Positions 1,465 to 40,408 of a stretch of 40,408 bases of DNA are shown here, piece after piece. The translations under genes were made by a program, and so were the position numbers. Positions within the stretch are counted from its first letter, which is position 1. Every line of letters begins with the position of its first letter. This stretch comes from a virus (lineage: Duplodnaviria; Heunggongvirae; Uroviricota; Caudoviricetes): positions 1-40,408 of IMG/VR virus record IMGVR_UViG_2529292759_000002; one strand, given 5' to 3'. The notes beneath the pieces are model-generated. The model did no database searches, was not told where the DNA came from, and saw only the letters and a list, made by a program, of their open reading frames with translations.

Positions 1465-1466
1465 TT

Positions 1467-4495: not shown

Positions 4496-4504
4496 TTTTT
4501 CTCC

Positions 4505-7048: not shown

Positions 7049-7128
7049 TAAAAAACCAAATATGGTTGATCTTTTTTTTGTGTCAGCACAAAATAACCGT
7101 AATCCCAATACTAATAACAGGGCTTACC

Positions 7129-7329: not shown

Positions 7330-7344
7330 TAGCGGAGATTAATC

Positions 7345-10430: not shown

Positions 10431-10431
10431 G

Positions 10432-11187: not shown

Positions 11188-11197
11188 GGACTAACAA

Positions 11198-11566: not shown

Positions 11567-11850
11567 TGGTCTCCTTCGCGAAATATACGATTATTGACTG
11601 GATAGCATTCATTCAGGTTTTGCTCATCTGGTTTTATATGGCTTACAGGAGTGGACAGTGGATTGTCAGTGTAGCCTGTAGCAATGGATGGCGTTGGTGG
11701 AACCGAAAGAATAAAAAAGCGCTGGCCTTGGCTTCGTTTTACGAAGCATTCAATCTTAACAGTCTTCAGCCTGGTTTTGTCGTTGTAGTCACCACTCAAA
11801 GCGGCATGACGATACAAATTCACAAGCCAAAGGAGGAAGGTCGTGGCTAA
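11563..11850 (+). CDS. Hypothetical small protein with a hydrophobic N-terminus
   Basis: 95 aa; 4-bp overlap with the upstream gene. Confidence 0.4.
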   Translation: MMVSFAKYTIIDWIAFIQVLLIWFYMAYRSGQWIVSVACSNGWRWWNRKNKKALALASFYEAFNLNSLQPGFVVVVTTQSGMTIQIHKPKEEGRG

Positions 11851-12124
11851 CCTGCAACTTGCCGTTAAAGGTGAATACTTCGATGCCATGATTCGCGGAG
11901 AGAAAACGGAAGAGTATCGCCTGTGTAATGACTACTGGAATAAGCGAATTATGTTCCGGGAGTATGACCGCCTGATTATCACAAAGGGATATCCGAAGCG
12001 CGACGATTCCAGCCGTAGAATTGATGTTCCGTATGACGGATATGAAATAAAGACAATCACACATCCCCACTTCGGCGATAAACCGGTAAAGGTGTACGCG
12101 ATAAAGGTGAATATTGATGGCTAA
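11843..12124 (+). CDS. Hypothetical small protein (possibly ASCH/PUA-like fold)
   Basis: 93 aa; overlaps both neighbours, consistent with an operon. Confidence 0.45.
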   Translation: MANLQLAVKGEYFDAMIRGEKTEEYRLCNDYWNKRIMFREYDRLIITKGYPKRDDSSRRIDVPYDGYEIKTITHPHFGDKPVKVYAIKVNIDG

Positions 12125-13170: not shown

Positions 13171-14636
13171 CAGATACAGCGTTATCTCCTGAAGAGCAGT
13201 TGATCGAGGATATTGCAGGGTTCACTCACGATCCGCTTGGCTATGCCCTCTATGCGTTCCCGTGGGGGGAAGAGGGTACTGAACTGGCACATGCCACCGG
13301 TCCACGTCAGTGGCAGGCCGATGCGTTCCGAGAGATACGTGATCACCTGCAGAATCCAGAGACGCGCTATCAGCCGCTTATGCTGGCACGCGCTTCTGGT
13401 CACGGTATTGGTAAATCCGCATTCATCTCAATGCTGATCAACTGGGGCATGTCCACTTGCGAGGATTGTAAGGTCGTGGTGACCGCCAACACCGACAACC
13501 AGCTACGAACGAAGACCTGGCCGGAAATTATCAAGTGGTCGAACCTTGCTATCACGAAAGACTGGTTTACCTGTACCGCTACTGCGATGTACAGCAATGA
13601 TCCTGGGCACGACAAGCGGTGGCGAGCTGACGCAATCCCCTGGTCTGAGCACAACACTGAGGCATTCGCCGGACTACACAACGAGCGCAAACGCATCATC
13701 GTGGTATTCGATGAAGCGTCGAACATTGCGGATCTGGTGTGGGAAGTTGCTGAGGGTGCGCTTACGGACGAAGACACTGAGATTATCTGGGTGGCGTTCG
13801 GAAACCCGACGCGTAATACCGGACGTTTCCGTGAATGTTTCCGCAAGTATAAACACCGCTGGAAAACTGCGCAGATTGACAGTCGGACGGTGGAAGGTAC
13901 CAACAAACAGCAGTTGCAGAAATGGGTTGATGACTACGGGGAAGACAGCGACTTCGTTAAAATCCGTGTGCGTGGCATATTCCCTGATGCATCTGAATTG
14001 CAGTTTATCCCTACCGGTCTTACTGACGAGGCAATGAAACGGGTGGTAACCGCTGCGCAGGTTGCACATGCTCCGGTGATAATCGGCGTTGACCCGGCAT
14101 ACTCCGGCGTTGATGACGCTGTGATATACCTGCGGCAGGGGCTACACAGTAAGGTGCTGTGGACTGGCAACAAGACCACTGACGATCTGATAATGGCGAA
14201 GCGTATCGCTGACTTTGAAGACCAGTACCAGGCTGACGCAGTGTTCATCGACTTCGGTTACGGAACTGGTCTGAAGTCAATCGGTGACGGCTGGGGTCGT
14301 ACATGGCAACTTGTTCCGTTTGGTGGCGCGTCTACTGACCCGCAGATGCTCAACAAGCGTGGGGAGATGTTCAACTCATGCAAGACATGGCTGAGGCTGG
14401 GCGGCATGCTTGATGACCAGGAAACAGCGGACGACCTGTCGGCGGCAGAGTACAAAGTTCGAGTGGACGGTAAAATCGTTATCGAACCGAAGGAAGATAT
14501 CAAGGAGCGGCTTGGGCGTTCTCCTGGTAAAGGCGATGCGCTACTGCTGACGTTTGCGTTCCCGGTAGCCAAGAAAACTAATGACCCACGGCAGCAGCAG
14601 GGCAGGGCTATAACAGACTATGACCCATTTGAATGA
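13167..14636 (+). CDS. Terminase large subunit
   Basis: 489 aa; Walker-A-like RASGHGIGKS; VVFDEASNI (Walker B/DExx-like); C-terminal nuclease-like region. Confidence 0.9.
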   Translation: MTDTALSPEEQLIEDIAGFTHDPLGYALYAFPWGEEGTELAHATGPRQWQADAFREIRDHLQNPETRYQPLMLARASGHGIGKSAFISMLINWGMSTCEDCKVVVTANTDNQLRTKTWPEIIKWSNLAITKDWFTCTATAMYSNDPGHDKRWRADAIPWSEHNTEAFAGLHNERKRIIVVFDEASNIADLVWEVAEGALTDEDTEIIWVAFGNPTRNTGRFRECFRKYKHRWKTAQIDSRTVEGTNKQQLQKWVDDYGEDSDFVKIRVRGIFPDASELQFIPTGLTDEAMKRVVTAAQVAHAPVIIGVDPAYSGVDDAVIYLRQGLHSKVLWTGNKTTDDLIMAKRIADFEDQYQADAVFIDFGYGTGLKSIGDGWGRTWQLVPFGGASTDPQMLNKRGEMFNSCKTWLRLGGMLDDQETADDLSAAEYKVRVDGKIVIEPKEDIKERLGRSPGKGDALLLTFAFPVAKKTNDPRQQQGRAITDYDPFE

Positions 14637-14639
14637 TTT

Positions 14640-15488
14640 TTACTTTTGTGTTTTTGATTTTCTTTGATAGGTGGAATTTAAATCACCATTTATATTTACT
14701 AGAGGATTATTCAATAATGTACTGATTTCTGGATTGTTAATTCCAGTAACGCCAAGTTTCTTTACGGACTCATTAAAGTCTTGTAATGATTTTAGACCTA
14801 CAAGCCCATTAGCAATTGTATTATTTGTTGCCAAAGGAATGTTTTTCTTATAGGACTCATATTCGTTTTTTAAATTTTTGTGAGTTTTTTCTAGATTTTC
14901 TAGTTTAGATGTTGTTTCATCAATAACCTTAGATAATTCTAAAATACGAGCTTGTGCTGCGCGCAGTTCTGTCTCCCTCTCTTTCAATTCAGATGTGAGT
15001 TGTCCCATTCTGTCTTTTGAAAGAATTATTTCCTCTTTCATGTCTTGAATGTTTTTTTCAGCGCCTGTTTTTACTTTTTCGTAAGTAATGTCTTTTTTAG
15101 CCAGCAATCTCTGTAGCCGTGTTTCACGTTGTATTTTTCTTGCCTTCCGGTGGTTTTCGATTGAGTCATTATTATCAAGAGGTTTTGCTTGCCATACGTT
15201 AATGATATTGTTTACCCATGGTAATAGGCAGCAGATAGTAATTACAGATAAGCATGGATAAAACATAACAGTTTTCCATGTGCTGTTATCTGAGATGTAT
15301 GAAATTTTATCTATTATATTTGATTTGCTAAAAAACAGATAAAGAAGTGATTTCCAGTTGAAGGCGCACCAGGACATAACAAAAGCACCAAGCACAGGGT
15401 TTTTAGCTCGATGCACGGCAGTATTGGCAGTAGATAAAAACAGCTCTTTGAACGATTCGAACATACTAATTACCTTAAAGTTTTTCAT
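14640..15488 (-). CDS. AT-rich moron: unknown protein with two N-terminal hydrophobic segments and a long coiled-coil region
   Basis: Reverse strand between the terminase and portal genes; markedly AT-rich; start at MKNFKV (15488) or an internal Met at 15464; coiled-coil-like segment ETRLQRLLAKK...ELRAAQARILELSKVIDETTSKLENLEKTHKNLKNE. Confidence 0.6.
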   Translation of the reverse strand: MKNFKVISMFESFKELFLSTANTAVHRAKNPVLGAFVMSWCAFNWKSLLYLFFSKSNIIDKISYISDNSTWKTVMFYPCLSVITICCLLPWVNNIINVWQAKPLDNNDSIENHRKARKIQRETRLQRLLAKKDITYEKVKTGAEKNIQDMKEEIILSKDRMGQLTSELKERETELRAAQARILELSKVIDETTSKLENLEKTHKNLKNEYESYKKNIPLATNNTIANGLVGLKSLQDFNESVKKLGVTGINNPEISTLLNNPLVNINGDLNSTYQRKSKTQK

Positions 15489-15507
15489 GATTATACCTTT
15501 AAGGTAA
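15470..15507. promoter_or_regulatory. Palindromic site (ATACCTTTAAGGTAA 15493-15507) plus half-site (TTACC 15470-15474) at the moron start; a TATAAT hexamer overlaps
   Basis: Minus strand reads TTACCTTAAAGGTATAATCATG; a second ATTACCTTAAAG copy lies 25 bp downstream in the transcript. Confidence 0.5.
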
Positions 15508-15521
15508 TTTGTGGTCATCAG

Positions 15522-15548
15522 GCAAAAAAAATGCCCGGCGAACCGGGC
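15522..15548 (-). terminator. Intrinsic terminator between the tRNA and the moron (minus strand)
   Basis: Minus-strand GCCCGG-TTCG-CCGGGC hairpin followed by TTTTTTTT. Confidence 0.6.
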
Positions 15549-15711: not shown

Positions 15712-15788
15712 TGGCGTGGCATGCAGGATTCGAACCTGCGACCAACCGCTTAGAAGGCGGTTGCTCTGTCCAACTGAGCTAATGCCAC
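15712..15788 (-). tRNA. tRNA-Arg (anticodon UCU), argU-like
   Basis: Hand-folded cloverleaf: acceptor GTGGCAT/ATGCCAC, D-stem GCTC/GAGC, anticodon stem ACCGC/GCGGT with loop CTTCTAA, T-arm GCAGG-TTCGAAT-CCTGC, encoded CCA; 77 nt. Confidence 0.85.
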
Positions 15789-20987: not shown

Positions 20988-21317
20988 GTGTATATGGAAC
21001 TCGTAAACCTCAAAACCGGCACTGACAGCTACCAGGATGAGAGCGGAGAAACCAGAACTCGCGATGAATACCCGTGGGGGCTGTGCATCACTCTTAATAA
21101 CGACACATTGAATAAGCTGAAGGCGCAACCTCAGGGCGTCGGAACAGAAGTGATGATAACTGCAAAAGCTGTTATTCGAGGCCTGTCTGCCAGAGAAACT
21201 GACGATGGTGTTAATCGCAGCGCCGATCTGCAGATCACTGATATGGCGATCGCTCCTGTTTCCGGGGATGTAGAAAAATCAGCGGCTGAAACCCTGTACG
21301 GCAATGGGGGTGAGTAA
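20988..21317 (+). CDS. Hypothetical structural protein (probable true start at ATG 20994)
   Basis: About 107 aa; GGAG Shine-Dalgarno 7 nt upstream of ATG 20994. Confidence 0.5.
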   Translation: MYMELVNLKTGTDSYQDESGETRTRDEYPWGLCITLNNDTLNKLKAQPQGVGTEVMITAKAVIRGLSARETDDGVNRSADLQITDMAIAPVSGDVEKSAAETLYGNGGE

Positions 21318-21922
21318 TGGCCTCTGTAGTAGAGATCTGCAATCGTGCGCTGTCCAATATTGGCAATAGCCGCAGCATTAACAGCCTGACGGAAGCCAGC
21401 AAGGAAGCGGGGGAATGTTCGCTGCACTTTGAGGCCTGCCGTGATGCTGTGCTTTCTGATTTTGACTGGAACTTTGCTACCAAACGCGTGGCGCTTGCAG
21501 ATACGAGCAATCCACCGCCTGACTGGGAATATGCGTACCAGTACCCGTCAGATTGTCTGCGCATTACTGAAATTATGCTTCCTGGTGTACGCAATCCAAC
21601 AGCAGCAATGCGCGTTCAGTACGAAGTTGGTGCAGACACCAACGGAACAGGAAAGTTGATCTACACAGACCAGCCTCAGGCATGGCTCAAGTATGTCTCT
21701 CGCGTTACAGATGTGAACATGTTTGATGCCATTTTTATGGAGGCGTTGGCCTGGCGTCTTGCGGCAGCTATTAACATGGCGCTGACTGGGAATGCAGACC
21801 TCGGTACGTTTGCCCTCAATATGTACAATCGCGTGATTCTTAGTGCTGGCTCGCATAGCCAGAATGAATCACAGGAACCACAGCCACCGGTTGACGAGTT
21901 TACCATTGCGAGGTTGTCCTGA
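21317..21922 (+). CDS. Tail adaptor / tubular protein A-like (gp11-like) candidate
   Basis: 201 aa; immediately precedes an 823-aa protein, matching the size and order of the T7-type gp11/gp12 pair (inference by synteny). Confidence 0.45.
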   Translation: MASVVEICNRALSNIGNSRSINSLTEASKEAGECSLHFEACRDAVLSDFDWNFATKRVALADTSNPPPDWEYAYQYPSDCLRITEIMLPGVRNPTAAMRVQYEVGADTNGTGKLIYTDQPQAWLKYVSRVTDVNMFDAIFMEALAWRLAAAINMALTGNADLGTFALNMYNRVILSAGSHSQNESQEPQPPVDEFTIARLS

Positions 21923-24393
21923 TGGCTATCAGTTGGATCCAGCCCAGCTTTGCTGGTGGTGAGATTGGACCGTCGTTGTACGGACGTATCGACATGGCGA
22001 AGTACCAGGTGGCATTGCGCAAGTGCGATAACTTTATCGTGCGGCAGTATGGCGGCGTTGAGAATCGACCTGGTACGCGTTTTGTCGGTGCCGCCAAATA
22101 TCCAAATCGGAAATGCCGCCTGATCCCGTTCCAGTTCTCGACGGTTCAGACTTATGCTCTGGAGTTCGGACACCAGTACATGCGCGTTATCAAAGATGGT
22201 GCGTTGGTGCTGAACAGCAGCAATGTTATTTATGAAATTTCCACGCCATATACTGAAGCCGATCTGTTCCGAATTAAATTCACGCAAAGCGCAGACGTGC
22301 TTACGCTGGTTCATCCGGCATACCCGCCGAAAGAGTTGCGCCGCTATGCGCATGACAACTGGCAACTGGTTGATGTGGTAACGAAGAACGGGCCATTTGA
22401 AGATATCAATATTGACGAGTCAGTGACGGTTTATGCCAGCGCCAGCACCGGGACAATTACGCTAACGGCAAGCGCCTCTATTTTTGGCGCGGAGCAGGTA
22501 GGCAAATTGTTCTATCTGGAACAGCCTGCAGTGGATTCTGTGCCGGTATGGGAAACCAGTAAGAGTACGTCGATTGGCGATATTCGCCGAGCAGACAGTA
22601 ACTACTATCGCGCCGTTAAAGCAGGCAAAACAGGTACTTTGCGCCCTTCGCATACAGAAGGCACATCATGGGATGGCTGGGGCGGATCCGGTGATGATGA
22701 TACTGGCATTGAGTGGGAATATCTGCACAGTGGTTTTGGCATTGCCCGTATCACTGCTGCAAATGGAACTACTGCAACTGCCGAGGTGATTTCCTATATC
22801 CCTTCGCAGGTAGTTGGCGAGGATAATGCCAGCTATAAATGGGCTAAATATGCCTGGAACAGTGTTAATGGTTATCCTGGCACTGTTGTTTATTATCAAC
22901 AACGTCTTTACTTCGCCGCATCGACTGCGTTTCCTCAGACTATCTGGGCCAGCCGTACCGGGGATTATAAGGATTTTGGCAAAAGCAATCCTACGCAGGA
23001 TGACGACAGAATTATCTACACCTATGCCGGGCGTCAGGTTAATGAGATCCGTCACCTGATTGATGTTGGTTCGCTGGTGGCGCTGACTTCCGGAGGTGAG
23101 TACGTCATCACTGGCGACCAGAACAAAGTGCTTACCCCATCATCATTTGCATTCAGCTCTCAGGGATCAAATGGCTCGAGCAATGTCCCACCAATTGCCG
23201 TGGCGAATATTGCTCTGTTCGTCCAGGAGAAAGGCAGTGTTGTCCGTGATCTGGCCTACTCATTCGATGTTGACGGCTATCAGGGGAACGACCTGACCAT
23301 CCTTGCCAATCATCTTTTTCAGAAGCACAGTATTGTTGACTGGTGCTTCTCTATTGTCCCTTACTCCAGCGCCTTCTGCATTCGTGATGACGGTAAATTA
23401 CTGGTGATGACCTATTTGCGTGATCAACAGGTTTTTGCATGGGCACCACAATCCAGTACCGGAAAATATGAAAGCACATGCAGTATCAGCGAAGGCAATG
23501 AAGATGCGGTGTATTTCGTCGTTAACCGAACCGTTAACGGGCAAACAGTGAGATACATCGAGCGACTGTCCAGCCGTTTATTTACCAGCGATGAAGATGC
23601 TTTCTTTGTTGATTCTGGCCTTAGCTATGATGGAAGAAATACGTCTGACAGAACGATGATCATCACTGGTGGTTCTGGCGAATGGGATTACCGCGAGGAA
23701 TATACAATCAGTGTTTCTGGTGGTGCGTACTTCACCAGTAGTGATGTCGGTGCGCAACTACAGTTCCCTTATACCGGAACTGATCCTGATACTGGCGATG
23801 AAGTGTCAAAAGAATTACGTTGCGACATTATTTCTGTAACCAGCAATACCGCAGTAGTGGTTCGTGCTAACAGGAACGTCCCGCCATCCCTCAGGAATGT
23901 GGCCACCACGAACTGGCAGATGGCGCGCCGGACATTTGGAGGCCTGTCTCATCTTGAAGGCCAGACCGTAAACATTCTCTCTGATGCGAACGTGGAACCA
24001 CAGAAAGTGGTTTCCGGAGGTGCCGTCACGCTGGAATCACCGGGGGCTGTAGTGCACATCGGCCTGCCAATAACTGCTGAATTCGAAACACTGGATATCA
24101 ACATTAACGGACAGGAAACGCTGCTGGACAAAAAACAGGTGATCCCGTCCGTTACTCTGGTTGTGAATGCCAGTCGCGGCATCTGGGCGACTACGCCCGG
24201 CGGTAAATGGTACGAATATCCACAGCGTGAATTCGAGTTCTACGATGATCCTGTTGATGATGCTACCGGAAAAGTAGAAGTGAAACTGGACAGTAACTGG
24301 GGCAAAAACGGACGTGTAAAAATCCGTCAGCTTGATCCGTTGCCGCTGTCTGTTCTTGCCGTTATTCCTCGCCTTACTGTTGGGGGATTCTGA
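21922..24393 (+). CDS. Tail tube / nozzle protein B-like (gp12-like) candidate
   Basis: 823 aa; synteny with the T7-type tail module. Confidence 0.5.
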   Translation: MAISWIQPSFAGGEIGPSLYGRIDMAKYQVALRKCDNFIVRQYGGVENRPGTRFVGAAKYPNRKCRLIPFQFSTVQTYALEFGHQYMRVIKDGALVLNSSNVIYEISTPYTEADLFRIKFTQSADVLTLVHPAYPPKELRRYAHDNWQLVDVVTKNGPFEDINIDESVTVYASASTGTITLTASASIFGAEQVGKLFYLEQPAVDSVPVWETSKSTSIGDIRRADSNYYRAVKAGKTGTLRPSHTEGTSWDGWGGSGDDDTGIEWEYLHSGFGIARITAANGTTATAEVISYIPSQVVGEDNASYKWAKYAWNSVNGYPGTVVYYQQRLYFAASTAFPQTIWASRTGDYKDFGKSNPTQDDDRIIYTYAGRQVNEIRHLIDVGSLVALTSGGEYVITGDQNKVLTPSSFAFSSQGSNGSSNVPPIAVANIALFVQEKGSVVRDLAYSFDVDGYQGNDLTILANHLFQKHSIVDWCFSIVPYSSAFCIRDDGKLLVMTYLRDQQVFAWAPQSSTGKYESTCSISEGNEDAVYFVVNRTVNGQTVRYIERLSSRLFTSDEDAFFVDSGLSYDGRNTSDRTMIITGGSGEWDYREEYTISVSGGAYFTSSDVGAQLQFPYTGTDPDTGDEVSKELRCDIISVTSNTAVVVRANRNVPPSLRNVATTNWQMARRTFGGLSHLEGQTVNILSDANVEPQKVVSGGAVTLESPGAVVHIGLPITAEFETLDININGQETLLDKKQVIPSVTLVVNASRGIWATTPGGKWYEYPQREFEFYDDPVDDATGKVEVKLDSNWGKNGRVKIRQLDPLPLSVLAVIPRLTVGGF

Positions 24394-32194: not shown

Positions 32195-32389
32195 GGATGT
32201 GTTGTGTTTTTAATTATTTTGAGTGTGATAATTTCTGGTGGGTTGTTATTTATTGACCGCTACAAATATTTTCTTAACCCTCAGACTCAAGCTATTTGCT
32301 GGTTCATCTTTGTTGTGCAGGGAATAGTTCTTGTTGCAAGCCTTATTGAGGGGAGGCCTCTGATTTTTACTGGGTAAATAGGTGACTAC

Positions 32390-32686
32390 ATGCAAGCGAT
32401 AGGATTCATTGTTTATATCGTCGTTGGCCTTTTTCAGTTGGCAGCAATTATGGCTGGGCTTGAATCATGGTGGGGATTGCACTGGATAATTGCAGCCCCC
32501 ATTGCTTTCATCGTGAGCTATATTCCATTTGTTGGAGCGATTGTTGGTATGGTTGGCGCTGTGGATGTATGGCGGTGGGAGTGGTGGCAGGCTGGCCTTC
32601 TCTTCTTTGGTGGGATCATCTTTGCTATTGTCTGCGGTGGAATGTCATCATTTTTCGAATGGCTATCATTCAGAAAAGGGACGTGA
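32390..32686 (+). CDS. Small Trp-rich integral membrane protein (candidate superinfection-exclusion or lysogenic-conversion factor)
   Basis: 98 aa with 2-3 hydrophobic helices; located after the ejection proteins; followed by a bidirectional terminator. Confidence 0.45.
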   Translation: MQAIGFIVYIVVGLFQLAAIMAGLESWWGLHWIIAAPIAFIVSYIPFVGAIVGMVGAVDVWRWEWWQAGLLFFGGIIFAIVCGGMSSFFEWLSFRKGT

Positions 32687-32756
32687 CATGTCACAGGCCG
32701 CTTTCGCGGCCTTGTTTTTAACGAATGCCACCGCCGCCCGGGCGGGAATCCGCAGA

Positions 32757-32783
32757 CACAAAAAAGCCCGCGCTGCGGGCTTC
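32757..32783. terminator. Bidirectional intrinsic terminator
   Basis: GCCCGC-GCT-GCGGGC hairpin flanked by AAAAAA upstream and TTCTATT downstream; T-tract strongest for the minus strand. Confidence 0.7.
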
Positions 32784-32785
32784 TA

Positions 32786-33418
32786 TTAATGCAGTTTATC
32801 TTTGCTTATAACCAGTAGTCTGTGGGTATGCACATCTTTATCACTGCCCCAACAGAAATCAGCCCACTGGCTATAGAAATCATCCCATGATGTCATGAAG
32901 CTAAGAGGTCTATCTTCTTCAGAGCCATCTGAAACGTATACATTATATCCTGGGGTGTTTATAGCCCAAGAAATCATTCTTTCCCAGAATCTTCTCCCAT
33001 CGATTGTTTGTTGCTCATCAGATACAACGATCGCATATTGCTCTAGGAAGAACTGAAAAAAAATCTGAGGCAAACCATGAACAGCACGGTCATGAATAAC
33101 ATTAGGCGTACGCCATACCATGATCTGCGTACATGTTCTTTTGGCTTCGACGATATCTTCCCGAAAGATTAACTTAACCGCATACACCGTTTCTGGAGTA
33201 TCGCTGGTAGTAATCATTCTGTAATGATCGCCATTACAAGATTTTACAAGGCGATAACCATAAGGTGTTGTGAATCCCGGAAGAACGAAATCAACCACAC
33301 CTTTCGCTAAGTAGCTTTCGGTGTGACTAGTGTTCTTCTCAGACATGTTCAGTTTTCTATCGAAATCTGCTTCTGGGATAATGTATGGCATCGCTTTTCT
33401 TGTTGTATTTGTTCTCAT
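32786..33418 (-). CDS. Accessory protein of unknown function (210 aa), AT-rich
   Basis: Reverse strand within the late region; GGAGG 3 nt before the ATG; own upstream palindromic site and strong terminator. Confidence 0.55.
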   Translation of the reverse strand: MRTNTTRKAMPYIIPEADFDRKLNMSEKNTSHTESYLAKGVVDFVLPGFTTPYGYRLVKSCNGDHYRMITTSDTPETVYAVKLIFREDIVEAKRTCTQIMVWRTPNVIHDRAVHGLPQIFFQFFLEQYAIVVSDEQQTIDGRRFWERMISWAINTPGYNVYVSDGSEEDRPLSFMTSWDDFYSQWADFCWGSDKDVHTHRLLVISKDKLH

Positions 33419-33477
33419 TTCGTCCTCCCATGTTTGGCTACAGGACGCGTTTTGAAGGGAAGATTAAAAATGCTTTC

Positions 33478-33492
33478 TTACCCTTGAGGTAA
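33478..33492. promoter_or_regulatory. 15-bp palindrome (TTACCCTTGAGGTAA) upstream of the 210-aa accessory gene
   Basis: Perfect site 60 bp upstream of the ATG at 33418. Confidence 0.5.
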
Positions 33493-33565
33493 TAGTACGC
33501 TATTCACCCCCAGTCTGCAATCTGTACAGAATTATTTAAAGGCACATCCCTGTGCCGCCGTTCTG

Positions 33566-34261
33566 TCAGAAGAACCCTGCCTTGTCGTTGATGTACTCCG
33601 CGTGGGTCTGGATATCACGCAGGCATTTGCTCACACCGACGATGTAGCAGAACATGGTGGTCAGTTCCGCCGCCGCGCCCGATACGTCGTGCCCGTCTTC
33701 CTGTAACTGGTTCAGCAGATTCATCAGCAGTGAGTTCTCCGTCAGGCCGAGAACACCAGACGGCGAATGAATCAGGCTACGGTAGCCGGGCTTCAGTGGG
33801 GCACTGTAGGTTTTGTTCTCTATCTTCATCGCCTGCATTACTGCTGACGCCGTGGCGTTGGCTACCTGGTCGGCAACCATCTTTATGCGTTCTTCCTGCG
33901 GGAGCGAGTTTTTAATGTAACTTCCGGTGCGGCGGATCTGAGGAAGAACCTCACCTGTAACCCATTTACGAAAGCGGTAGGGGATAGTGCCTGGTGTCAC
34001 TGCGTCGCGGCAGCGGAGGATCAGTGTGTAGAGGCCTGACTCGGAGATGATGATCGATTCTTGCTCACCGCCAGGGGTGTCGGTTGAAGCGACGCCCTTC
34101 TCATCATCATCAAGTTTTCGAACAGCATCTCGATGGTTTGCTATGCCTATAGCCCGACAAACATCTGAAGCGATAAACCATGGCTCACCATTAATGACGA
34201 TTACCCGTATATCGGCTTGGGATTCGAAAGAAAAAATGGACGTGCTTTTTGTAGCTGTCAT
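33566..34261 (-). CDS. Bro-N / KilA-N domain antirepressor (Ant-like)
   Basis: 231 aa; N-terminal pattern IRVIVINGEPWFIASDVCRAIGIANHRDAVRKL...ESGLYTLILR typical of Bro-N antirepressors; C-terminal domain paralogous to the small upstream gene. Confidence 0.75.
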   Translation of the reverse strand: MTATKSTSIFSFESQADIRVIVINGEPWFIASDVCRAIGIANHRDAVRKLDDDEKGVASTDTPGGEQESIIISESGLYTLILRCRDAVTPGTIPYRFRKWVTGEVLPQIRRTGSYIKNSLPQEERIKMVADQVANATASAVMQAMKIENKTYSAPLKPGYRSLIHSPSGVLGLTENSLLMNLLNQLQEDGHDVSGAAAELTTMFCYIVGVSKCLRDIQTHAEYINDKAGFF

Positions 34262-34418
34262 AGTGGTTACCTTTTAGTCTGGTTAATCACCACTACCGAC
34301 GCCAATCGGTTGGTGGTGAACTGTGCAGGGTTGGCGTAACCGGCTAAAAGGACCCGGCGCACCTTTCGGTGCCCCCACACAGCCCACCATAATACGAATG
34401 TGGCCGTGCTATACGCAT

Positions 34419-34438
34419 AAAAAAACCGCTTGCGCGGT
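34419..34438 (-). terminator. Intrinsic terminator between the small SOS-box gene and the antirepressor gene
   Basis: Minus-strand ACCGCGCAAGCGGT hairpin followed by TTTTTTT. Confidence 0.55.
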
Positions 34439-34530
34439 GAATGCGCCTTTTAGTAATCCGGGACGCCAATCCCGGCACTGGATTTTGCCAGTGCTCGATT
34501 ACTATGGCACAAGAGGAGTGCGTTGTAAAT

Positions 34531-34545
34531 TTACCGCAAAGGTAA
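34531..34545. promoter_or_regulatory. 15-bp palindrome (TTACCGCAAAGGTAA) in the antirepressor upstream region
   Basis: Perfect site between the stop of the small gene and the terminator/leader of the antirepressor gene. Confidence 0.45.
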
Positions 34546-34576
34546 ATATAAGCACTCCATTTGGTGATTGCAAACC

Positions 34577-34834
34577 TTATCTGGTTTGTTTTCGTAATTG
34601 TTCGGCACAATAGTCGAGATGTGTTTGCAGATCCTGCATAGACATCTGTGAGCTGGTGACGTAGTTAATCAGTGCAGTCAGTTCGGCAAGTGGGCCATCG
34701 ACATTAAATCCATCCTTATCGAGATCCCGGAGTAATTTCATCAAGTGCGATCCCTCCACCAGTGACCTGACGCCTCCCGGCGTGTGAATCCTTTCGGTAA
34801 ATCCGTCTTCCAGTGGATAGTGATACTGCTGCAT
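34577..34834 (-). CDS. Small protein (85 aa) homologous to the C-terminal domain of the downstream antirepressor; SOS-box-preceded
   Basis: Start taken at the internal ATG (MQQYHYPLEDG...) because a LexA-type box and a palindromic site lie inside the longer ORF; GGAG Shine-Dalgarno 8 nt upstream; shared pattern IH.P.GV..L.E.S.LM.LL..L..DG..V.G...ELT...Y...L.D.QTH..Y with Ant residues about 155-225. Confidence 0.6.
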   Translation of the reverse strand: MQQYHYPLEDGFTERIHTPGGVRSLVEGSHLMKLLRDLDKDGFNVDGPLAELTALINYVTSSQMSMQDLQTHLDYCAEQLRKQTR

Positions 34835-34853
34835 CTTATCTTCTCCATGCAAT

Positions 34854-34873
34854 AACTGTATATTTATACAGTA
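34854..34873. promoter_or_regulatory. LexA (SOS) box
   Basis: AACTGTATATTTATACAGTA: CTGT-N8-ACAG with AT-rich spacer, 18/20 to the E. coli consensus; about 22 bp upstream of the small gene start. Confidence 0.75.
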
Positions 34874-34910
34874 GCAAATAATTTGTTTGCTATCCAGCAC
34901 GTTTTGCAAA

Positions 34911-34925
34911 TTACCTGAAAGGTAA
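34911..34925. promoter_or_regulatory. 15-bp palindrome (TTACCTGAAAGGTAA) upstream of the SOS box
   Basis: Perfect site about 40 bp upstream of the LexA box on the transcribed strand. Confidence 0.5.
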
Positions 34926-35029
34926 TATCTATTCGTATTTACAGCCTTTCTATCCATATGTGGTTTTCCAGGTAATAGAATAACCAGATATGCGGCGCAA
35001 CGGGTGCTGCGACTATCTGGAGATTTAAC

Positions 35030-38000
35030 ATGACGGTCTCAACCGAAGTTGACCACAACGAATACACCGGTAACGGCGTTACGACATCGTTTCCGTATAC
35101 TTTTCGAATTTTCAGAAAATCAGACCTGGTTGTTCAGGTGTCTGACCTGAACGGAAACGTAACAGAATTGGTTCTGGATACCGGTTATACGGTAACTGGG
35201 GCGGGCACTTATAGTGGCGGTTCTGTGGTTCTTCCGTCTCCGCTTGCTACTGGATGGCGAATTACGATAGATCGTGTGCTTGATGTAGTGCAGGAGACAG
35301 ACCTTCGCAATCAGGGAAAATTTTTCCCCGAAGTGCATGAAGATGCCTTTGACTACCTGACGATGCTGATCCAGCAATGTTTTGGGTGGTTCAGACGTGC
35401 ATTGATGAAACCATCTTTGCTTGCAAAATATTACGATGCAAAGCAAAACAAAATTTCTAACCTTGCAGATCCATCATTTGAGCAGGACGCTGTAAATAAT
35501 CGCTCAATGCGTAATTATGTCGATGCTGCAATCGCCGGGGTTGTTGGTGGTTTTGGTTGGTTTATTCAGTATGGTTCTGGGGCTGTGTACCGAACGTTCC
35601 AGGATAAAATGCGTGATGCTATTAGCCCCAAAGATTTTGGAGCTGTTGGTGATGGTATAAATGACGATTCCACTGCAATAAGCGCGTGCCTTGAAGCCTC
35701 ATCTCCAGGTTATAAAATTGACGGATTAGGGCTTACTCTTAAAGTATCAACTCTTCCGGATGTCAGTCGATTTAAAAATGCTCGTTTTTTATTTGAGAGA
35801 ATACCGGGCCAGCCTCTTTTTTATGCTTCTGAAGATTTTATCCAGGGAGAGTTATTTAAAATTACAGATACACCGTGGTACAACGCCTGGACGCAGGATA
35901 AAACGTTTGTATATGACAATGTCATCTATGCGCCTTTTATGGCTGGAGACCGCCATGGTGTAAATAACCTCCATGTTGCATGGGTTCGCTCAGGAGATGA
36001 CGGGAAGACCTGGACAACGCCGGAATGGCTTACAGATTTACATGAAAACTATCCCACAGTTAACTATCACTGCATGAGTATGGGGGTTGTCAGAAATCGC
36101 CTTTTTGCTGTAATTGAGACGCGGACCGTGAGCGGAAATAAACTGCAGGTTGCAGAGTTGTGGGATCGCCCAATGAGTCGCAGCCTTCGCGTTTATGGTG
36201 GTATAACGAAAGCAGCAAATCAGCAAGTCGCTTATATTCGCATTACTGATCACGGATTATTTGCTGGTGATTTTGTCAACTTCTCAAACTCTGGTGTTAC
36301 AGGTGTTACCGGGAATATGACGGTGACTACTGTTATTGATAAAAATACTTTTACAGTTACGACGCAAAATACCCAGGATGTGGATCAGAATAACGAGGGT
36401 AGATACTGGAGTTTTGGTACATCATTTCACTCGTCACCATGGAGAAAAACCAGTCTTGGAACTATTCCTTCTTTTGTTGACGGAAGCACTCCTGTTACTG
36501 AGATTCACAGTTTTGCGACGATTAGCGATAACAGTTTTGCTGTTGGCTACCATAATGGTGATATTGGTCCACGCGAGCTTGGGATACTCTATTTCTCTGA
36601 TGCTTTCGGTTCTCCTGGTAGCTTTGTTCGCAGACGCATACCTGCAGAATATGAGGCGAATGCATCTGAGCCATGTGTAAAATATTATGATGGCATTCTG
36701 TATCTGACGACCAGGGGGACATTAAGTACTCAACCCGGTAGTTCATTGCACAGAAGCTCTGATTTAGGTACATCATGGAATTCTCTTCGCTTCCCAAATA
36801 ATGTTCATCACTCAAACCTTCCTTTTGCCAAAGTTGGCGATGAGCTGATTATTTTTGGCAGTGAGCGCGCATTTGGTGAGTGGGAAGGAGGAGAACCTGA
36901 TAACCGTTATGCAGGAAACTATCCAAGAACATTTATGACCAGAGTTAACGTCAATGAGTGGAGTCTGGATAATGTAGAGTGGGTTAATGTTACTGATCAG
37001 ATTTATCAGGGCGGAATAGTTAACTCTGCGGTTGGTGTTGGTTCAGTTTGTATCAAAGACAACTGGCTGTACTACATTTTCGGTGGGGAAGACTTTCTAA
37101 ACCCATGGAGCATAGGGGATAACAACAGAAAATATCCTTATGTTCACGATGGTCACCCGGCTGATTTGTATTGTTTCAGGGTGAAAATTAAACAGGAAGA
37201 ATTTGTTTCAAGGGATTTTGTCTACGGAGCCACTCCTAACAGAACGCTTCCTACTTTTATGTCGACGTCAGGCGTGAGGACGGTTCCTGTACCCGTTGAT
37301 TTCACAGATGATGTTGCCGTCCAGTCACTGACTGTCCATGCAGGTACATCAGGACAAGTTCGCGCGGAAGTCAAACTTGAGGGTAATTACGCCATTATTG
37401 CGAAGAAAGTACCGTCTGATGATGTTACCGCTCAGAGATTAATCGTTAGCGGCGGTGAAACAACGTCTTCAGCAGATGGTGCAATGATAACGTTGCATGG
37501 TTCCGGAAGCAGTACTCCACGTCGCGCGGTATATAACGCACTCGAACATCTTTTTGAGAACGGAGATGTTAAACCTTATCTTGATAATGTAAATGCTCTT
37601 GGTGGTCCGGGAAACAGGTTCTCGACAGTTTATCTTGGCTCCAATCCTGTGGTTACCAGTGACGGAACATTAAAGACAGAGCCGGTCTCTCCTGACGAAG
37701 CATTGCTGGATGCCTGGGGTGACGTCAGGTATATCGCTTATAAATGGCTGAACGCTGTCGCTATAAAGGGGGAAGAAGGGGCGAGGATACATCATGGTGT
37801 AATCGCGCAGCAACTTCGTGATGTTCTTATTTCTCACGGACTCATGGAAGAAGAAAGCACAACATGCCGCTATGCCTTTCTTTGCTATGACGATTATCCC
37901 GCAGTATATGATGACGTCATTACTGGCCAAAGGGAAATGCCGCTGACTGATAATGACGGGAGCATCATTGTTGATGAGGATGATAATCCAGTGATGGTAA

Positions 38001-38149
38001 TAGAAGACATCATTGAGCGCGTTGAAATAACGCCAGCAGGATCTAGATGGGGGGTCAGACCTGATCTCTTATTCTATATCGAGGCAGCATGGCAGCGCAG
38101 AGAAATGGATAAGATAAAAGAGCGGGTTCAGTCTCTGGAAGAACGTTAA
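35030..38149 (+). CDS. Tailspike / tail fibre depolymerase with T7 gp17-like N-terminal anchor and C-terminal intramolecular chaperone domain
   Basis: 1039 aa; N-terminus YTGNGVTTSFPYTFRIFRKSDLVV resembles the T7 tail-fibre N-terminal domain; DFGAVGDGINDDSTAI motif typical of beta-helix (pectate-lyase-like) enzymes; Asp-box-like SGDDGKTW and SDLGTSW; C-terminal region (YLDNVNALGG...RIHHGVIAQQLRDVL...) resembles peptidase-S74 chaperone domains. Confidence 0.8.
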   Translation: MTVSTEVDHNEYTGNGVTTSFPYTFRIFRKSDLVVQVSDLNGNVTELVLDTGYTVTGAGTYSGGSVVLPSPLATGWRITIDRVLDVVQETDLRNQGKFFPEVHEDAFDYLTMLIQQCFGWFRRALMKPSLLAKYYDAKQNKISNLADPSFEQDAVNNRSMRNYVDAAIAGVVGGFGWFIQYGSGAVYRTFQDKMRDAISPKDFGAVGDGINDDSTAISACLEASSPGYKIDGLGLTLKVSTLPDVSRFKNARFLFERIPGQPLFYASEDFIQGELFKITDTPWYNAWTQDKTFVYDNVIYAPFMAGDRHGVNNLHVAWVRSGDDGKTWTTPEWLTDLHENYPTVNYHCMSMGVVRNRLFAVIETRTVSGNKLQVAELWDRPMSRSLRVYGGITKAANQQVAYIRITDHGLFAGDFVNFSNSGVTGVTGNMTVTTVIDKNTFTVTTQNTQDVDQNNEGRYWSFGTSFHSSPWRKTSLGTIPSFVDGSTPVTEIHSFATISDNSFAVGYHNGDIGPRELGILYFSDAFGSPGSFVRRRIPAEYEANASEPCVKYYDGILYLTTRGTLSTQPGSSLHRSSDLGTSWNSLRFPNNVHHSNLPFAKVGDELIIFGSERAFGEWEGGEPDNRYAGNYPRTFMTRVNVNEWSLDNVEWVNVTDQIYQGGIVNSAVGVGSVCIKDNWLYYIFGGEDFLNPWSIGDNNRKYPYVHDGHPADLYCFRVKIKQEEFVSRDFVYGATPNRTLPTFMSTSGVRTVPVPVDFTDDVAVQSLTVHAGTSGQVRAEVKLEGNYAIIAKKVPSDDVTAQRLIVSGGETTSSADGAMITLHGSGSSTPRRAVYNALEHLFENGDVKPYLDNVNALGGPGNRFSTVYLGSNPVVTSDGTLKTEPVSPDEALLDAWGDVRYIAYKWLNAVAIKGEEGARIHHGVIAQQLRDVLISHGLMEEESTTCRYAFLCYDDYPAVYDDVITGQREMPLTDNDGSIIVDEDDNPVMVIEDIIERVEITPAGSRWGVRPDLLFYIEAAWQRREMDKIKERVQSLEER

Positions 38150-38152
38150 AAA

Positions 38153-38180
38153 AAAGCCCGCAAAATATTGCGGGTATCAA
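38153..38180 (-). terminator. Hairpin terminator after the tailspike gene, best formed on the minus strand
   Basis: GCCCGCAA-AATA-TTGCGGGT preceded by A8 on the plus strand (U8 after the hairpin on the minus strand); only ATCAAAAAC follows on the plus strand. Confidence 0.5.
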
Positions 38181-38455
38181 AAACGGAGTTGGTGAAAAGT
38201 TATCTTTGAATTCTATCATGAATCAGTACGTATTTTAAATACATGTTCAGGTTTATTACACCATAGCATTATTAAATACAAAATTAAGTCTATGGTTCCT
38301 GTACAACTGCCCCCACTCTGCTGGCTCGTTCTGTAAAATCATTAGTACTTTTATTGAGATATATGATATGGAACAATAATGATTCATATATGGTTTACTA
38401 TGCGGGTTTAGTCATCAATAATTGACTGGCTTATAGATAGTAAACAGGAGAAAGT

Positions 38456-39155: not shown

Positions 39156-39774
39156 ACAATTCCAGCGAGCTGCTGGTATCAGCGAGGCACTGGCCGCACG
39201 CTGGTTCTCGCATATAACTTCTGCGATGAAAGAGTTTGGTATCAGCAAAGCAGAAGATCAGGCAATGTTTATTGCTCAAGTCGGGCATGAGTCTGGGGGC
39301 TTCACCAGGTTGCAGGAGAATTTCAACTACAGTGTCAGCGGACTGGCTAACTTCGTTCGGGCTGGGCGTCTCACTCAGGGGCAGGCTAATGCACTGGGGC
39401 GCCGTGCTGGTGAACCACCATTGCCACTTGAGCGCCAGCGCGCGATCGCAAATATGGTATACAGCAAACGCATGGGGAACAATGCCCCTGGTGATGGCTG
39501 GAATTACCGAGGGCGCGGACTTATCCAGATTACCGGTTTGAATAACTATCGTGATTGCGGAAACGGTCTGAAGGTTGACCTGCTGGAGAGCCCTGAACTG
39601 CTGGCGCAGGACGGATATGCGGCTCGTAGCGCGGCGTGGTTCTTCGCCAGCAAAGGATGCATGAAGTATACCGGCGATATTGCACGTGTAACTCTGATTA
39701 TCAATGGTGGCCGGAACGGCATCGACGACCGGCGAGCGCGGTACATCACTGCCAGTAAGGTGCTGGCGGTATGA
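39145..39774 (+). CDS. Endolysin, glycoside hydrolase family 19 (chitinase-like) type
   Basis: Start at the internal ATG (MEIKQF...) with GAGGT Shine-Dalgarno; motifs [27 protein letters not shown] and [10 protein letters not shown] resemble GH19 lysozymes. Confidence 0.75.
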
Positions 39775-40253
39775 TCTGGGCATTCGTAAAAGCATACTGG
39801 AAACAGTTTCTTATCGTGGCAGTGCTTGCTGTTCTGGTCATATCAGGAGTGGTTGCCTGGAATATACACGGCAGTCGCCAGTACGATGCCGGGTATGCTC
39901 AGGCGGAAGAAGACCGCAAAGCCGAAGAAGACAAAGTTCGTCAGTACTACGAACAGGAGAAAGTGACCAATGAACGTGAAGCTCAGCAGAGGATCGACCA
40001 GGCGCGCAATGATGCTCTTGATGCTGCCGCTAGCGCTGGCCGGTTGCAGCAACAACTCTTTGCCATCCGTGAGCAGCTCAGGCAGTATAACGCCATTGTC
40101 GGCGCTGGGTCGTCAGCCGCAGACACCGGAGTTTTGCTTGCCGACGTGCTCAGCAAATCTCTCGAGAGAAACAGACAACTGGCAGAGTATGCTGACCGGG
40201 CAGCCGAAGCCGGAAGAGTCTGCGAAAAACAGTACGACACTTTGACCAGATAG
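39771..40253 (+). CDS. Rz-like inner-membrane spanin
   Basis: 160 aa; N-terminal transmembrane helix ([17 protein letters not shown]) then coiled-coil; overlaps the endolysin stop; embedded lipoprotein ORF in another frame. Confidence 0.7.
40009..40245 (+). CDS. Rz1-like outer-membrane lipoprotein spanin, embedded in the Rz gene
   Basis: ORF in a different frame inside Rz; lipobox-like signal [13 protein letters not shown]; Pro/Ser-rich mature part; exact start (39970, 40009 or 40012) uncertain. Confidence 0.55.
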   Translation: MMLLMLPLALAGCSNNSLPSVSSSGSITPLSALGRQPQTPEFCLPTCSANLSRETDNWQSMLTGQPKPEESAKNSTTL

Positions 40254-40363: not shown

Positions 40364-40408
40364 ATTGAGTGGGAATGATTAACAGCTAACTCATAGCAAC
40401 TCATTCCT
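40364..40408. repeat. attR: attR: right copy of the 45-bp direct repeat
   Basis: Identical to bases 1-45. Confidence 0.85.

What the first reader, a model, noticed from the sequence alone, without database searches (positions are those of the whole stretch)
35030..38149. Mosaic tailspike: T7-type anchor, beta-helix depolymerase core with Asp-box-like motifs, C-terminal chaperone domain
The first about 150 residues resemble the T7 tail-fibre N-terminal anchor, consistent with the gp11/gp12-like tail genes upstream. The central part carries the D-F-G-A-x-G-D-G-x-x-D-D motif of beta-helix polysaccharide-degrading enzymes plus two S-x-D-x-G-x-T-W-like motifs, and the C-terminal 150 residues resemble an auto-cleaving chaperone domain. 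The central region is AT-richer than the anchor, suggesting a horizontally swapped receptor-binding module; it probably targets a capsule or O-antigen and so defines host range.
Basis: partly seen in the sequence, partly recalled or inferred. Interest (0 to 1): 0.55.

Follow-up and report, generated by a model that had tools for sequence, protein, structure and literature searches.

The report
K1-capsule endosialidase tailspike of prophage
The gene encodes a well-known type of phage tailspike, an endosialidase that cuts the polysialic-acid K1 capsule of E. coli; it sits on an epsilon15-like prophage and was already described in the nearly identical phage vB_EcoP_ZX5, so it is real and mosaic but ordinary.

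Summary
ORF 35030-38149 (+, 1039 aa) is real and has three modules, but its core is not a beta-helix. Pfam and PDB searches place residues 205-876 in the GH58 endosialidases. These consist of an N-terminal extension, a six-bladed beta-propeller with an inserted beta-barrel, and a stalk. Identity to K1F endoNF is about 70% across the beta-propeller (56-67% in the flanking extension and stalk), and the catalytic residues are conserved. Residues 877-1039 are the Peptidase_S74 self-cleaving chaperone, with the Ser877/Lys882 dyad intact. Residues 1-198 are the particle anchor shared by epsilon15-type (Uetakevirus) tailspikes. The anchor fails Pfam Phage_T7_tail (15.9 bits against a 25.2 cut-off), but its predicted fold matches T7 gp17 N-termini. 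Homologues of the adaptor and nozzle it should dock to lie upstream. The mosaic is confirmed by DNA breakpoints: 97.7% identity to phage EC.W1-9 up to 35625, and 99.5% to CUS-3 siaK1 over 35728-38120. GC content does not support it (anchor versus core z below 1). The window is a complete prophage, 98-99.8% identical to the published K1 phage vB_EcoP_ZX5 over the blocks the two share (several early-region blocks differ), and the ZX5 paper already reports this domain layout. The same gene is in 72 of 5426 complete E. coli genomes. Already known; low interest.

The parts
35030..38149 (+). Complete tailspike gene (1039 codons plus stop): endosialidase (endo-N-acetylneuraminidase)
   Evidence: ORF list. 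99.8% nt identity to ZX5 ORF7 and to 72 E. coli chromosomal copies annotated as endosialidase.
35030..35625 (+). Virion-anchor module, aa 1-198: beta-sandwich (about aa 8-85) followed by a helical neck (about aa 104-197)
   Evidence: PHROG tail families over 1-204. Carin-1 Dpo31 D1-D2, E 4e-35. AF2 model with pLDDT about 90 for residues 10-80. Foldseek hits to 8ck1 fibre and T7 gp17 N-termini 7boz/7ey9. 97.7% nt identity to EC.W1-9 up to 35625.
35626..35727 (+). Junction segment, aa 199-232. It contains DFGAVGDGINDD. It is endosialidase-type but matches neither EC.W1-9 nor CUS-3.
   Evidence: Ungapped comparisons. Found only in the same 72 genomes and in the ZX5/Phi05 records. 44% aa identity to CUS-3 and 38% to K1F.
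35642..35842 (+). Endosialidase N-terminal extension, aa 205-271 (PF12218)
   Evidence: Pfam E 5.5e-31.
35843..37192 (+). Catalytic six-bladed beta-propeller, aa 272-721 (PF12217). Asp-boxes at 321-328 and 576-583. Catalytic residues H309, R515, E547, R562, R613.
   Evidence: Pfam E 1.4e-233. endoNF 1v0e/3gvl E = 0. Residue mapping against the residues listed in PMC12632334.
36176..36424 (+). Beta-barrel domain inserted in the propeller, aa 383-465 (PF12195)
   Evidence: Pfam E 3.2e-46.
37193..37657 (+). Stalk domain, aa 722-876 (PF12219, triple-beta-helix stalk of endosialidases). It ends at the cleavage site T876/S877.
   Evidence: Pfam E 8.4e-78. The solved endoNF chains end at the aligned ...GSNPxVT.
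37658..38146 (+). Intramolecular chaperone / auto-cleavage domain, aa 877-1039 (Peptidase_S74). Ser877-Lys882 dyad; Arg863 is equivalent to endoNF R897.
   Evidence: Pfam. 3gw6 E 2e-93. Residue mapping. Dyad as described in PMC8326128.
35728..38120 (+). Block 99.5% identical (12 differences in 2393 nt) to siaK1 of the P22-like prophage CUS-3. Positions 35827-37504 are identical.
38121..38430 (+). Last 9 codons plus an AT-rich spacer (GC 0.33) specific to this lineage, with a hairpin at 38157-38174. EC.W1-9 homology resumes at 38431.
21317..21922 (+). Adaptor (T7 gp11-like connector), a presumed docking partner of the anchor
   Evidence: 8ck1 'Connector Protein', E 4e-26. phrog_394 and phrog_9239 tail tubular protein.
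21922..24393 (+). Tail nozzle (T7 gp12-like), a presumed docking partner of the anchor
   Evidence: 8ck1 'Tail Nozzle', E 8e-218. phrog_376.

Best explanation
The gene encodes the trimeric endosialidase tailspike of an epsilon15-like (Uetakevirus) temperate podophage of E. coli K1. The inferred mechanism, in order, is as follows. [quoted passage not shown] It then removes itself by Ser877/Lys882-catalysed cleavage between T876 and S877. The N-terminal beta-sandwich and helical neck (aa 1-198) dock the mature trimer onto the adaptor/nozzle junction of a T7-like short tail. [quoted passage not shown] This lets the virion tunnel through the K1 capsule, so the gene determines K1 host specificity.

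The gene is a recombinant. A Uetakevirus anchor is joined at the conserved ...FQDKMRD/DFGAxGDG boundary to an endosialidase cassette. The interior of that cassette (35728-38120) is almost identical to siaK1 of the P22-like prophage CUS-3. CUS-3 lives in the same K1 chromosomes.

Shown here: domain membership, conserved residues, DNA breakpoints, genomic context. Inferred from homologues: enzymatic activity, cleavage, docking geometry.
For: Four endosialidase Pfam domains and Peptidase_S74 all score above their curated cut-offs. PDB search gave endoNF E = 0 over 205-876, phi92 endoN92 (4hiz) E 1e-270, and the endoNF CTD 3gw6 E 2e-93. The catalytic residues H350/R549/E581/R596/R647 and the cleavage residues S911/K916/R897 of endoNF are all conserved (residue lists from PMC12632334 and PMC8326128). 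The core is 99.5% identical in nt to CUS-3 siaK1, which its record annotates as having endo-alpha-sialidase activity by direct assay. Anchor: Dpo31/Carin-1 E 4e-35; the Dpo31 paper describes a beta-sandwich D1 plus coiled-coil D2, with D1 attached at the virion base; the AF2 model and Foldseek hits to T7-like fibre N-termini agree. The adaptor and nozzle are homologous to 8ck1 chains, and the portal is T7-type (PF12236). The window is a complete prophage bounded by 45-bp att repeats, 98-99.8% identical to phage ZX5 over the shared blocks. ZX5 was isolated on an O87:H52:K1 host, and its paper gives the same three-domain description. The carriers include K1 strains such as IHE3034, APEC O1, APEC O18 and O2:K1:H7.
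Against: No activity, cleavage or adsorption assay exists for this exact protein. The ZX5 paper inferred function from domains only. The anchor's link to T7 gp17 rests on a medium-quality monomer model (mean pLDDT 65, TM 0.33-0.5). Sequence-level comparisons to the K1F anchor are not significant (hhalign E 0.82, BLASTP E 0.45). From memory, K1F Q853 is a stalk polySia-binding residue; it is Met819 here and in CUS-3.
Confidence: 0.93

Rival explanations
1. One reading: a right-handed parallel beta-helix (pectate-lyase-like) depolymerase core flanked by a T7 anchor and an S74 chaperone, targeting an unspecified capsule or O-antigen.
For: The DFGAVGDGINDD motif at 202-213 gives a weak hit to PF12708 (E 0.036). 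Sister tailspikes with the same anchor, such as EC.W1-9 'eliminase' and P0001, do carry PF12708-type modules directly after the same motif.
Against: PF12708 scores 14.3 bits against a 27-bit cut-off and covers only 21 residues. The whole central region is accounted for by endosialidase domains at E 1e-233, and by about 70% identity (beta-propeller) to a solved beta-propeller structure. The only beta-helix present is the intertwined triple-beta-helix of the stalk.
Confidence: 0.02
2. A decayed or inactive prophage remnant: the gene is carried in K1 lysogens but no longer makes a working spike (binding-only or non-functional).
For: Most copies are prophage copies in chromosomes. A lysogen degrading its own capsule might be selected against.
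Against: The 1039-codon ORF is intact. All catalytic and cleavage residues are conserved. The propeller is 100% identical in aa to CUS-3 endosialidase. The window has intact att repeats and a full gene set. ZX5, with a gene 99.8% identical, is a plaque-forming phage that is spontaneously induced at 10^7 PFU/mL.
Confidence: 0.04
3. Same fold but different specificity, for example K92 (alternating alpha-2,8/2,9) or O-acetylated polysialic acid rather than plain K1.
For: phi92 endoN92 is a 59% identical homologue with broadened linkage specificity. The co-resident CUS-3 O-acetylates the K1 capsule through neuO. A stalk residue differs from K1F.
Against: The module is essentially that of CUS-3. 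ZX5 was isolated on a K1 host. All carriers identifiable by name are K1 strains.
Confidence: 0.05

Closest known systems
ORF7 tail protein of Escherichia phage vB_EcoP_ZX5 (MW722083; PMC9782041)
   Same: 99.8% nt identity over the whole gene (7 differences). Same Uetakevirus genome backbone, same att core, K1 host. The same three-domain description is already published.
   Different: A handful of SNPs. The window differs from ZX5 in early-region blocks and in the 32195-33539 accessory block, not in the spike.
CUS-3 endosialidase SiaK1 (CP000711, P22-like Lederbergvirus prophage of E. coli K1 RS218)
   Same: Catalytic propeller 100% identical in aa. Stalk 98.7% and chaperone 96.8% identical. 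99.5% nt identity over 2393 nt.
   Different: The anchor differs: CUS-3 has a P22-type head-binding domain, whereas here it is an epsilon15-type anchor. The first about 34 residues of the N-terminal extension and the last 9 residues also differ. CUS-3 is followed by neuO; here an AT-rich spacer and the lysis genes follow.
EndoNF, tailspike gp17 of coliphage K1F (PDB 1v0e, 3gvl, 3gw6)
   Same: Same domain order. 70% aa identity in the propeller, 56% in the stalk, 55% in the chaperone. All catalytic and cleavage residues are conserved. Both have two Asp-boxes.
   Different: The K1F anchor is a true T7 gp17-type N-terminus and shows no significant sequence similarity to this one. There is a 7-residue insertion (FVDGSTP) here relative to K1F. 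K1F is lytic; this phage is temperate.
Tailspikes of epsilon15-like phages and related prophages (EC.W1-9 'eliminase', SPN1S, phiV10 group); Carin-1 Dpo31 (PDB 28lx/8ck1)
   Same: Same N-terminal anchor. It is 97.7% identical in nt to EC.W1-9, 68-72% identical in aa to Salmonella/Klebsiella spikes, and matches Dpo31 at E 4e-35. The adaptor and nozzle partners are the same.
   Different: Their receptor-binding parts are right-handed beta-helix or other enzymes, and most lack the S74 chaperone.

Membership tests
GH58 phage endosialidase (endo-N-acetylneuraminidase, EC 3.2.1.129) | Six-bladed beta-propeller catalytic domain (Pfam PF12217) above the curated threshold | tested here: met
   774.9 bits against a cut-off of 24, full profile length 1-367. 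endoNF structures E = 0.
GH58 phage endosialidase (endo-N-acetylneuraminidase, EC 3.2.1.129) | Active-site residues equivalent to endoNF H350, R549, E581, R596, R647 | tested here: met
   H309, R515, E547, R562 and R613 are all conserved in the MAFFT alignment. Residue list from PMC12632334.
GH58 phage endosialidase (endo-N-acetylneuraminidase, EC 3.2.1.129) | Two Asp-box (S-x-D-x-G-x-T-W) motifs in the propeller | tested here: met
   SGDDGKTW at 321-328 and SSDLGTSW at 576-583. Both align with the K1F boxes. Chance: 34 of 20000 shuffles gave even one.
GH58 phage endosialidase (endo-N-acetylneuraminidase, EC 3.2.1.129) | Inserted beta-barrel domain (PF12195), N-terminal extension (PF12218) and stalk (PF12219) | tested here: met
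   155.7, 106.5 and 260.4 bits, all above their cut-offs.
GH58 phage endosialidase (endo-N-acetylneuraminidase, EC 3.2.1.129) | Endo-cleavage of alpha-2,8 polysialic acid | not testable with these tools
   Inferred from 100% aa identity of the propeller to CUS-3 SiaK1, whose record cites a direct assay, and from the K1 host of ZX5.
Peptidase_S74 intramolecular chaperone auto-cleavage domain | Pfam PF13884 above threshold, located at the C-terminus after a triple-beta-helix stalk | tested here: met
   41.4-45.2 bits against a cut-off of 22. 3gw6 E 2e-93.
Peptidase_S74 intramolecular chaperone auto-cleavage domain | Ser-Lys catalytic dyad (endoNF S911/K916) and the stalk Arg (R897) | tested here: met
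   S877, K882 and R863 are conserved. Roles as described in PMC8326128.
Peptidase_S74 intramolecular chaperone auto-cleavage domain | Actual self-cleavage and release of an approximately 18-kDa fragment | not testable with these tools
   Needs SDS-PAGE of the recombinant protein and of an S877A mutant.
Phage_T7_tail (Pfam PF03906, T7 gp17 N-terminal domain) | Score at or above the Pfam gathering threshold | tested here: not met
   15.9 bits against 25.2; the best stretch covers only aa 135-161. There was no hit at all when the whole protein was scanned at E <= 0.1. hhalign against the K1F anchor gave E 0.82 and BLASTP gave E 0.45.
Phage_T7_tail (Pfam PF03906, T7 gp17 N-terminal domain) | Same fold and same docking partners (adaptor gp11 / nozzle gp12) | tested here: met
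   Foldseek hits to 7boz_a (1.2e-4), 7ey9_a (3e-4) and the Kp7, Kp9, PhiM1 and P-SCSP1u fibre N-termini, all at probability 1.00 but with TM only 0.3-0.5. Adaptor and nozzle homologues lie upstream. So it works like a T7 anchor but is not filed as a Pfam member.
Pectate-lyase-like right-handed beta-helix depolymerases (PF12708 and relatives) | Beta-helix domain detected above threshold over the catalytic region | tested here: not met
   14.3 bits against 27, covering aa 201-221 only. The region is occupied by a beta-propeller.
Uetakevirus (epsilon15-like) tailspike N-terminal anchor family | High-scoring match of aa 1 to about 200 to tailspikes of epsilon15-like phages, within a Uetakevirus genome | tested here: met
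   PHROG families 13893, 1171, 5662 and 1640, E 1e-97 to 1e-140. SPN1S 68%, EC.W1-9 97.7% nt. The window matches ZX5 at 98-99.8% over the shared blocks, and ZX5 is classified as Uetakevirus.

The most novel reading that the evidence does not exclude
The gene records two layers of exchange. First, an older endosialidase cassette that has not otherwise been sampled was grafted onto the Uetakevirus anchor. It survives only as the lineage-specific edges at 35626-35727 and 38121-38430. Second, its interior (35728-38120) was more recently overwritten by homologous recombination with siaK1 of CUS-3, or donated to it. CUS-3 is a P22-like prophage of another genus that sits about 167 kb away in the same ST95-type K1 chromosomes. 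Co-resident prophages would then be actively sharing receptor-binding modules inside their common host.
Probability: 0.45. Interest if true: 0.35.

Novelty: already known. Interest (0 to 1): 0.15.

Why it matters
Endosialidase tailspikes are the textbook case of phages swapping capsule-specific enzymes between unrelated tail architectures. They are also used as reagents to remove polysialic acid and as anti-K1 therapeutics. This copy adds nothing new in kind, because the gene and its layout are already published for phage ZX5. It does give a clean example of the same catalytic module, at 99.5% nt identity, mounted on two different virion anchors in two prophages of one pathogen lineage (neonatal-meningitis and avian pathogenic E. 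coli K1). It also shows that the DFGAxGDGxxDD motif marks a module boundary and not a beta-helix, which is a useful caution for motif-based annotation.

Tried and rejected
1. Beta-helix core: rejected by the Pfam and PDB results.

2. GC content as evidence of the swap: the domain-wise GC differences are not significant.

3. Sequence-level test of T7-type anchor homology: Pfam is sub-threshold, and hhalign and BLASTP against the K1F anchor are non-significant. Only the fold search supports the link.

4. Search for a donor of the junction segment 35615-35735 and of the 3' edge 38114-38440, in 5426 E. coli genomes and 50,697 phage records. Nothing was found outside the same gene lineage, so the third parent remains unknown.

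5. Ongoing gene conversion between the two endosialidase copies within one genome. In IHE3034 the two copies differ at 13 positions, the same ones that separate them between genomes, so there is no sign of genome-specific homogenisation.

6. The paper PMC2666599 (endoNF processing) is not held. Residue roles were taken from PMC12632334 and PMC8326128 instead.

7. Not used, because the answer was already clear: the large representative-protein search, metagenome scans and RNA tools.
Full report
**Observation.** A single ORF runs from 35030 to 38149 on the + strand and encodes 1039 aa.
- DFGAVGDGINDD at aa 202-213.
- Two exact Asp-box motifs, SGDDGKTW at 321-328 and SSDLGTSW at 576-583.
- A C-terminal chaperone domain.

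The motifs are not chance events. Only 34 of 20000 shuffles of the protein produced even one Asp-box, and none produced the DFGA motif.

**What the protein is.** Pfam-A assigns residues as follows, each far above its curated cut-off:
- 205-271: End_N_terminal.
- 272-721: End_beta_propel (E 1.4e-233, full profile length).
- 383-465: End_beta_barrel, inserted in the propeller.
- 722-876: End_tail_spike.
- 877-937: Peptidase_S74.

The PDB sequence search gives E = 0 to the K1F endosialidase endoNF (1v0e, 3gvl) over 205-876. It gives E 1e-270 to the phi92 endosialidase (4hiz), and E 2e-93 to the endoNF stalk plus chaperone construct 3gw6 over 757-1038.

In a MAFFT alignment with K1F gp17, the residues reported as catalytic in endoNF are all conserved. 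H350, R549, E581, R596 and R647 (PMC12632334) correspond to H309, R515, E547, R562 and R613 here. The auto-cleavage dyad S911/K916 and the stalk arginine R897 (PMC8326128) correspond to S877, K882 and R863.

The core is therefore a GH58 endosialidase built on a six-bladed beta-propeller, not a right-handed beta-helix. The only support for a beta-helix is a 21-residue, 14.3-bit match to PF12708, whose cut-off is 27 bits, centred on the DFGAxGDG motif. That motif lies in the endosialidase N-terminal extension. It also occurs directly after the same anchor in sister tailspikes that do carry PF12708-type modules. It therefore marks a module boundary rather than a fold.

**The anchor.** Residues 1-204 match many PHROG tail-fibre and tailspike families at E 1e-97 to 1e-140, always at their N-termini and joined to unrelated C-terminal parts. 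tblastn finds the same approximately 170-residue module in several hosts:
- Salmonella epsilon15-like phages (SPN1S, 68%).
- Klebsiella and Enterobacter phages.
- More distantly, podophages of Pseudomonas, Xanthomonas, Vibrio and Pelagibacter.

The nearest solved relative is Dpo31 of the marine podovirus Carin-1 (28lx/8ck1, E 4e-35 over residues 1-211). Its paper describes a beta-sandwich D1 (residues 8-87) followed by a coiled-coil D2, with D1 attached at the base of the virion. An AlphaFold2 model of residues 1-204 reproduces this. The beta-sandwich has pLDDT of about 90 for residues 10-80. The helices have low confidence, as expected for a monomer model of a trimeric coiled coil.

Foldseek against the PDB returns the following, all at probability 1.00 but with TM of only 0.3-0.5:
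- The Carin-1 fibre (E 1e-11).
- N-termini of T7-like fibres: LME-1, PhiM1, Kp7, Kp9 and P-SCSP1u.
- T7 gp17 itself (7boz_a at 1.2e-4, 7ey9_a at 3e-4).

By sequence the link to T7 is not established. PF03906 scores 15.9 bits against a cut-off of 25.2. Comparison with the true T7-type anchor of K1F is non-significant (hhalign E 0.82, BLASTP E 0.45). So the anchor works like a T7 fibre anchor, but it belongs by sequence to the epsilon15/Uetakevirus family.

The expected docking partners are present upstream:
- 21317-21922 matches the Carin-1 connector (adaptor, E 4e-26).
- 21922-24393 matches the Carin-1 nozzle (E 8e-218).
- The portal is T7-type (PF12236).
- A gp14-like internal virion protein is present.

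**Genomic context.** The window begins and ends with an identical 45-bp direct repeat, at 1-45 and 40364-40408. Its first 17 bases are the attP core reported for phiV10, epsilon15 and ZX5. The window is thus a whole prophage from attL to attR. It is 98-99.8% identical to Escherichia phage vB_EcoP_ZX5 (Uetakevirus) over most of its length, with some replaced early-region and accessory blocks.

ZX5 was isolated on an O87:H52:K1 host. Its paper already describes ORF7 as a T7-like N-terminus, an endosialidase and the endosialidase intramolecular chaperone. The spike gene is 99.8% identical to ORF7, with 7 differences.

The full gene occurs in 72 of 5426 complete E. coli genomes and is annotated there as an endosialidase. 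Carriers include IHE3034, APEC O1, APEC O18 and O2:K1:H7 strains.

**The mosaic.** GC is 0.456 in the anchor, 0.446 in the CUS-3-like block and 0.436 in the propeller (z = 0.46 and 0.85). Only the gene as a whole (0.448) is lower than the rest of the window (0.487, z = -4.5).

DNA comparison gives sharp breakpoints:
- Phage EC.W1-9 has the same backbone but a different 'eliminase' spike. It is 97.7% identical from 34577 to 35625, and perfectly identical up to about 35607, at codons ...FQDKMRD. It then diverges, and homology resumes at 38431.
- siaK1 of the P22-like prophage CUS-3 is 99.5% identical over 35728-38120, with 12 differences in 2393 nt. There are none between 35827 and 37504. Four fall in the first 100 nt and four in the last 14 nt.

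Two edge segments match neither parent. One is 35626-35727 (aa 199-232), which is endosialidase-like but only 44% identical to CUS-3. The other is 38121-38430, comprising the last 9 codons and an AT-rich spacer. Both were found only in this gene's own lineage among 5426 E. coli genomes and 50,697 phage records.

Both spike types co-reside in the same chromosomes. In IHE3034 they are about 167 kb apart. The two copies there differ at 13 positions, nine of which are the fixed differences that separate the two spike types in every copy compared here, so there is no sign of genome-specific homogenisation.

The simplest reading is an older endosialidase cassette on the Uetakevirus anchor, whose interior later recombined with CUS-3 siaK1. 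The direction of transfer is unknown. This is an inference.

**Mechanism.** Domain membership, conserved residues and context are shown here; the steps themselves are inferred from endoNF, CUS-3, T7 and Carin-1.
1. The chaperone domain nucleates trimerisation of the stalk.
2. It removes itself at T876/S877.
3. The N-terminal beta-sandwich docks the trimer to the adaptor/nozzle junction.
4. The propeller, with the beta-barrel and stalk as extra binding sites, endo-cleaves alpha-2,8 polysialic acid, so the virion can cross the K1 capsule.

**Verdict.** The modular tailspike, the chaperone and the host-range role are right. The beta-helix call is wrong, and the GC argument is unsupported. The object is an already published, ordinary member of a well-studied family, so interest is low. 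The only mildly new point is the two-layer recombination history with the co-resident CUS-3 prophage.

Noticed in passing
window 1-45 and 40364-40408: A perfect 45-bp direct repeat lies at the two ends of the window. Its first 17 bases are the attP core reported for phiV10, epsilon15 and ZX5. The window is therefore a complete prophage from attL to attR. ZX5 integrates at the 3' end of guaA.
   Followed up: partly
window 15712-15788 (-): The prophage carries a tRNA-Arg (anticodon TCT), between the terminase and portal regions.
   Followed up: no
window 39970-40245 (+), inside 39771-40253: A 91-aa ORF is embedded out of frame in the DUF2514 / Rz-like gene. It has a lipoprotein signal ending in LALAGC, which looks like an embedded Rz1-type o-spanin. 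It is not annotated in ZX5.
   Followed up: no
window 38150-38455: A 306-nt AT-rich spacer (GC 0.33) follows the spike gene. It has a GC-rich hairpin at 38157-38174, preceded by A8; on the minus strand this reads as an intrinsic terminator. The spacer occurs only in the ZX5/Phi05 lineage.
   Followed up: partly
window 32195-35029: A variable accessory region lies between the last virion gene and the spike. It contains small membrane ORFs, a 210-aa minus-strand ORF, a BRO-N/antirepressor gene (33566-34261, -) and a 126-aa minus-strand ORF. Block 32195-33539 is absent from ZX5. The IHE3034 copy carries a YafO-family toxin pair in this region instead.
   Followed up: partly
window 1448-2119, 3477-5400, 7072-8387, 9994-12116, 14564-15525: These early and lysogeny-region blocks have no megablast match in ZX5, so the prophage is also mosaic outside the spike.
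   Followed up: no
L005 / L006 (E. coli IHE3034, NC_017628.1: 2715108-2718053 and 2884245-2887364): Two endosialidase tailspike genes sit about 167 kb apart in one K1 chromosome, one on a CUS-3-type (P22-like) prophage and one on the Uetakevirus prophage. The same pairing is seen in APEC O18, EC69, N1, N21, N54, ST95-32 and E15.
   Followed up: partly
window 36473-36493 (aa 482-488) and aa 819: Relative to K1F endoNF, the propeller carries a 7-residue insertion (FVDGSTP). K1F Q853, recalled from memory as a stalk polySia-binding residue, is Met here. Both features are shared with CUS-3.
   Followed up: no
P0010 (Kluyvera cryocrescens, 277 aa): This protein has the same anchor (80% identity) and the same ...MRDAxSPKDF junction, followed by a divergent End_N_terminal-type segment (PF12218). 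It appears to be truncated. It hints that endosialidase-like modules sit on this anchor outside E. coli.
   Followed up: no
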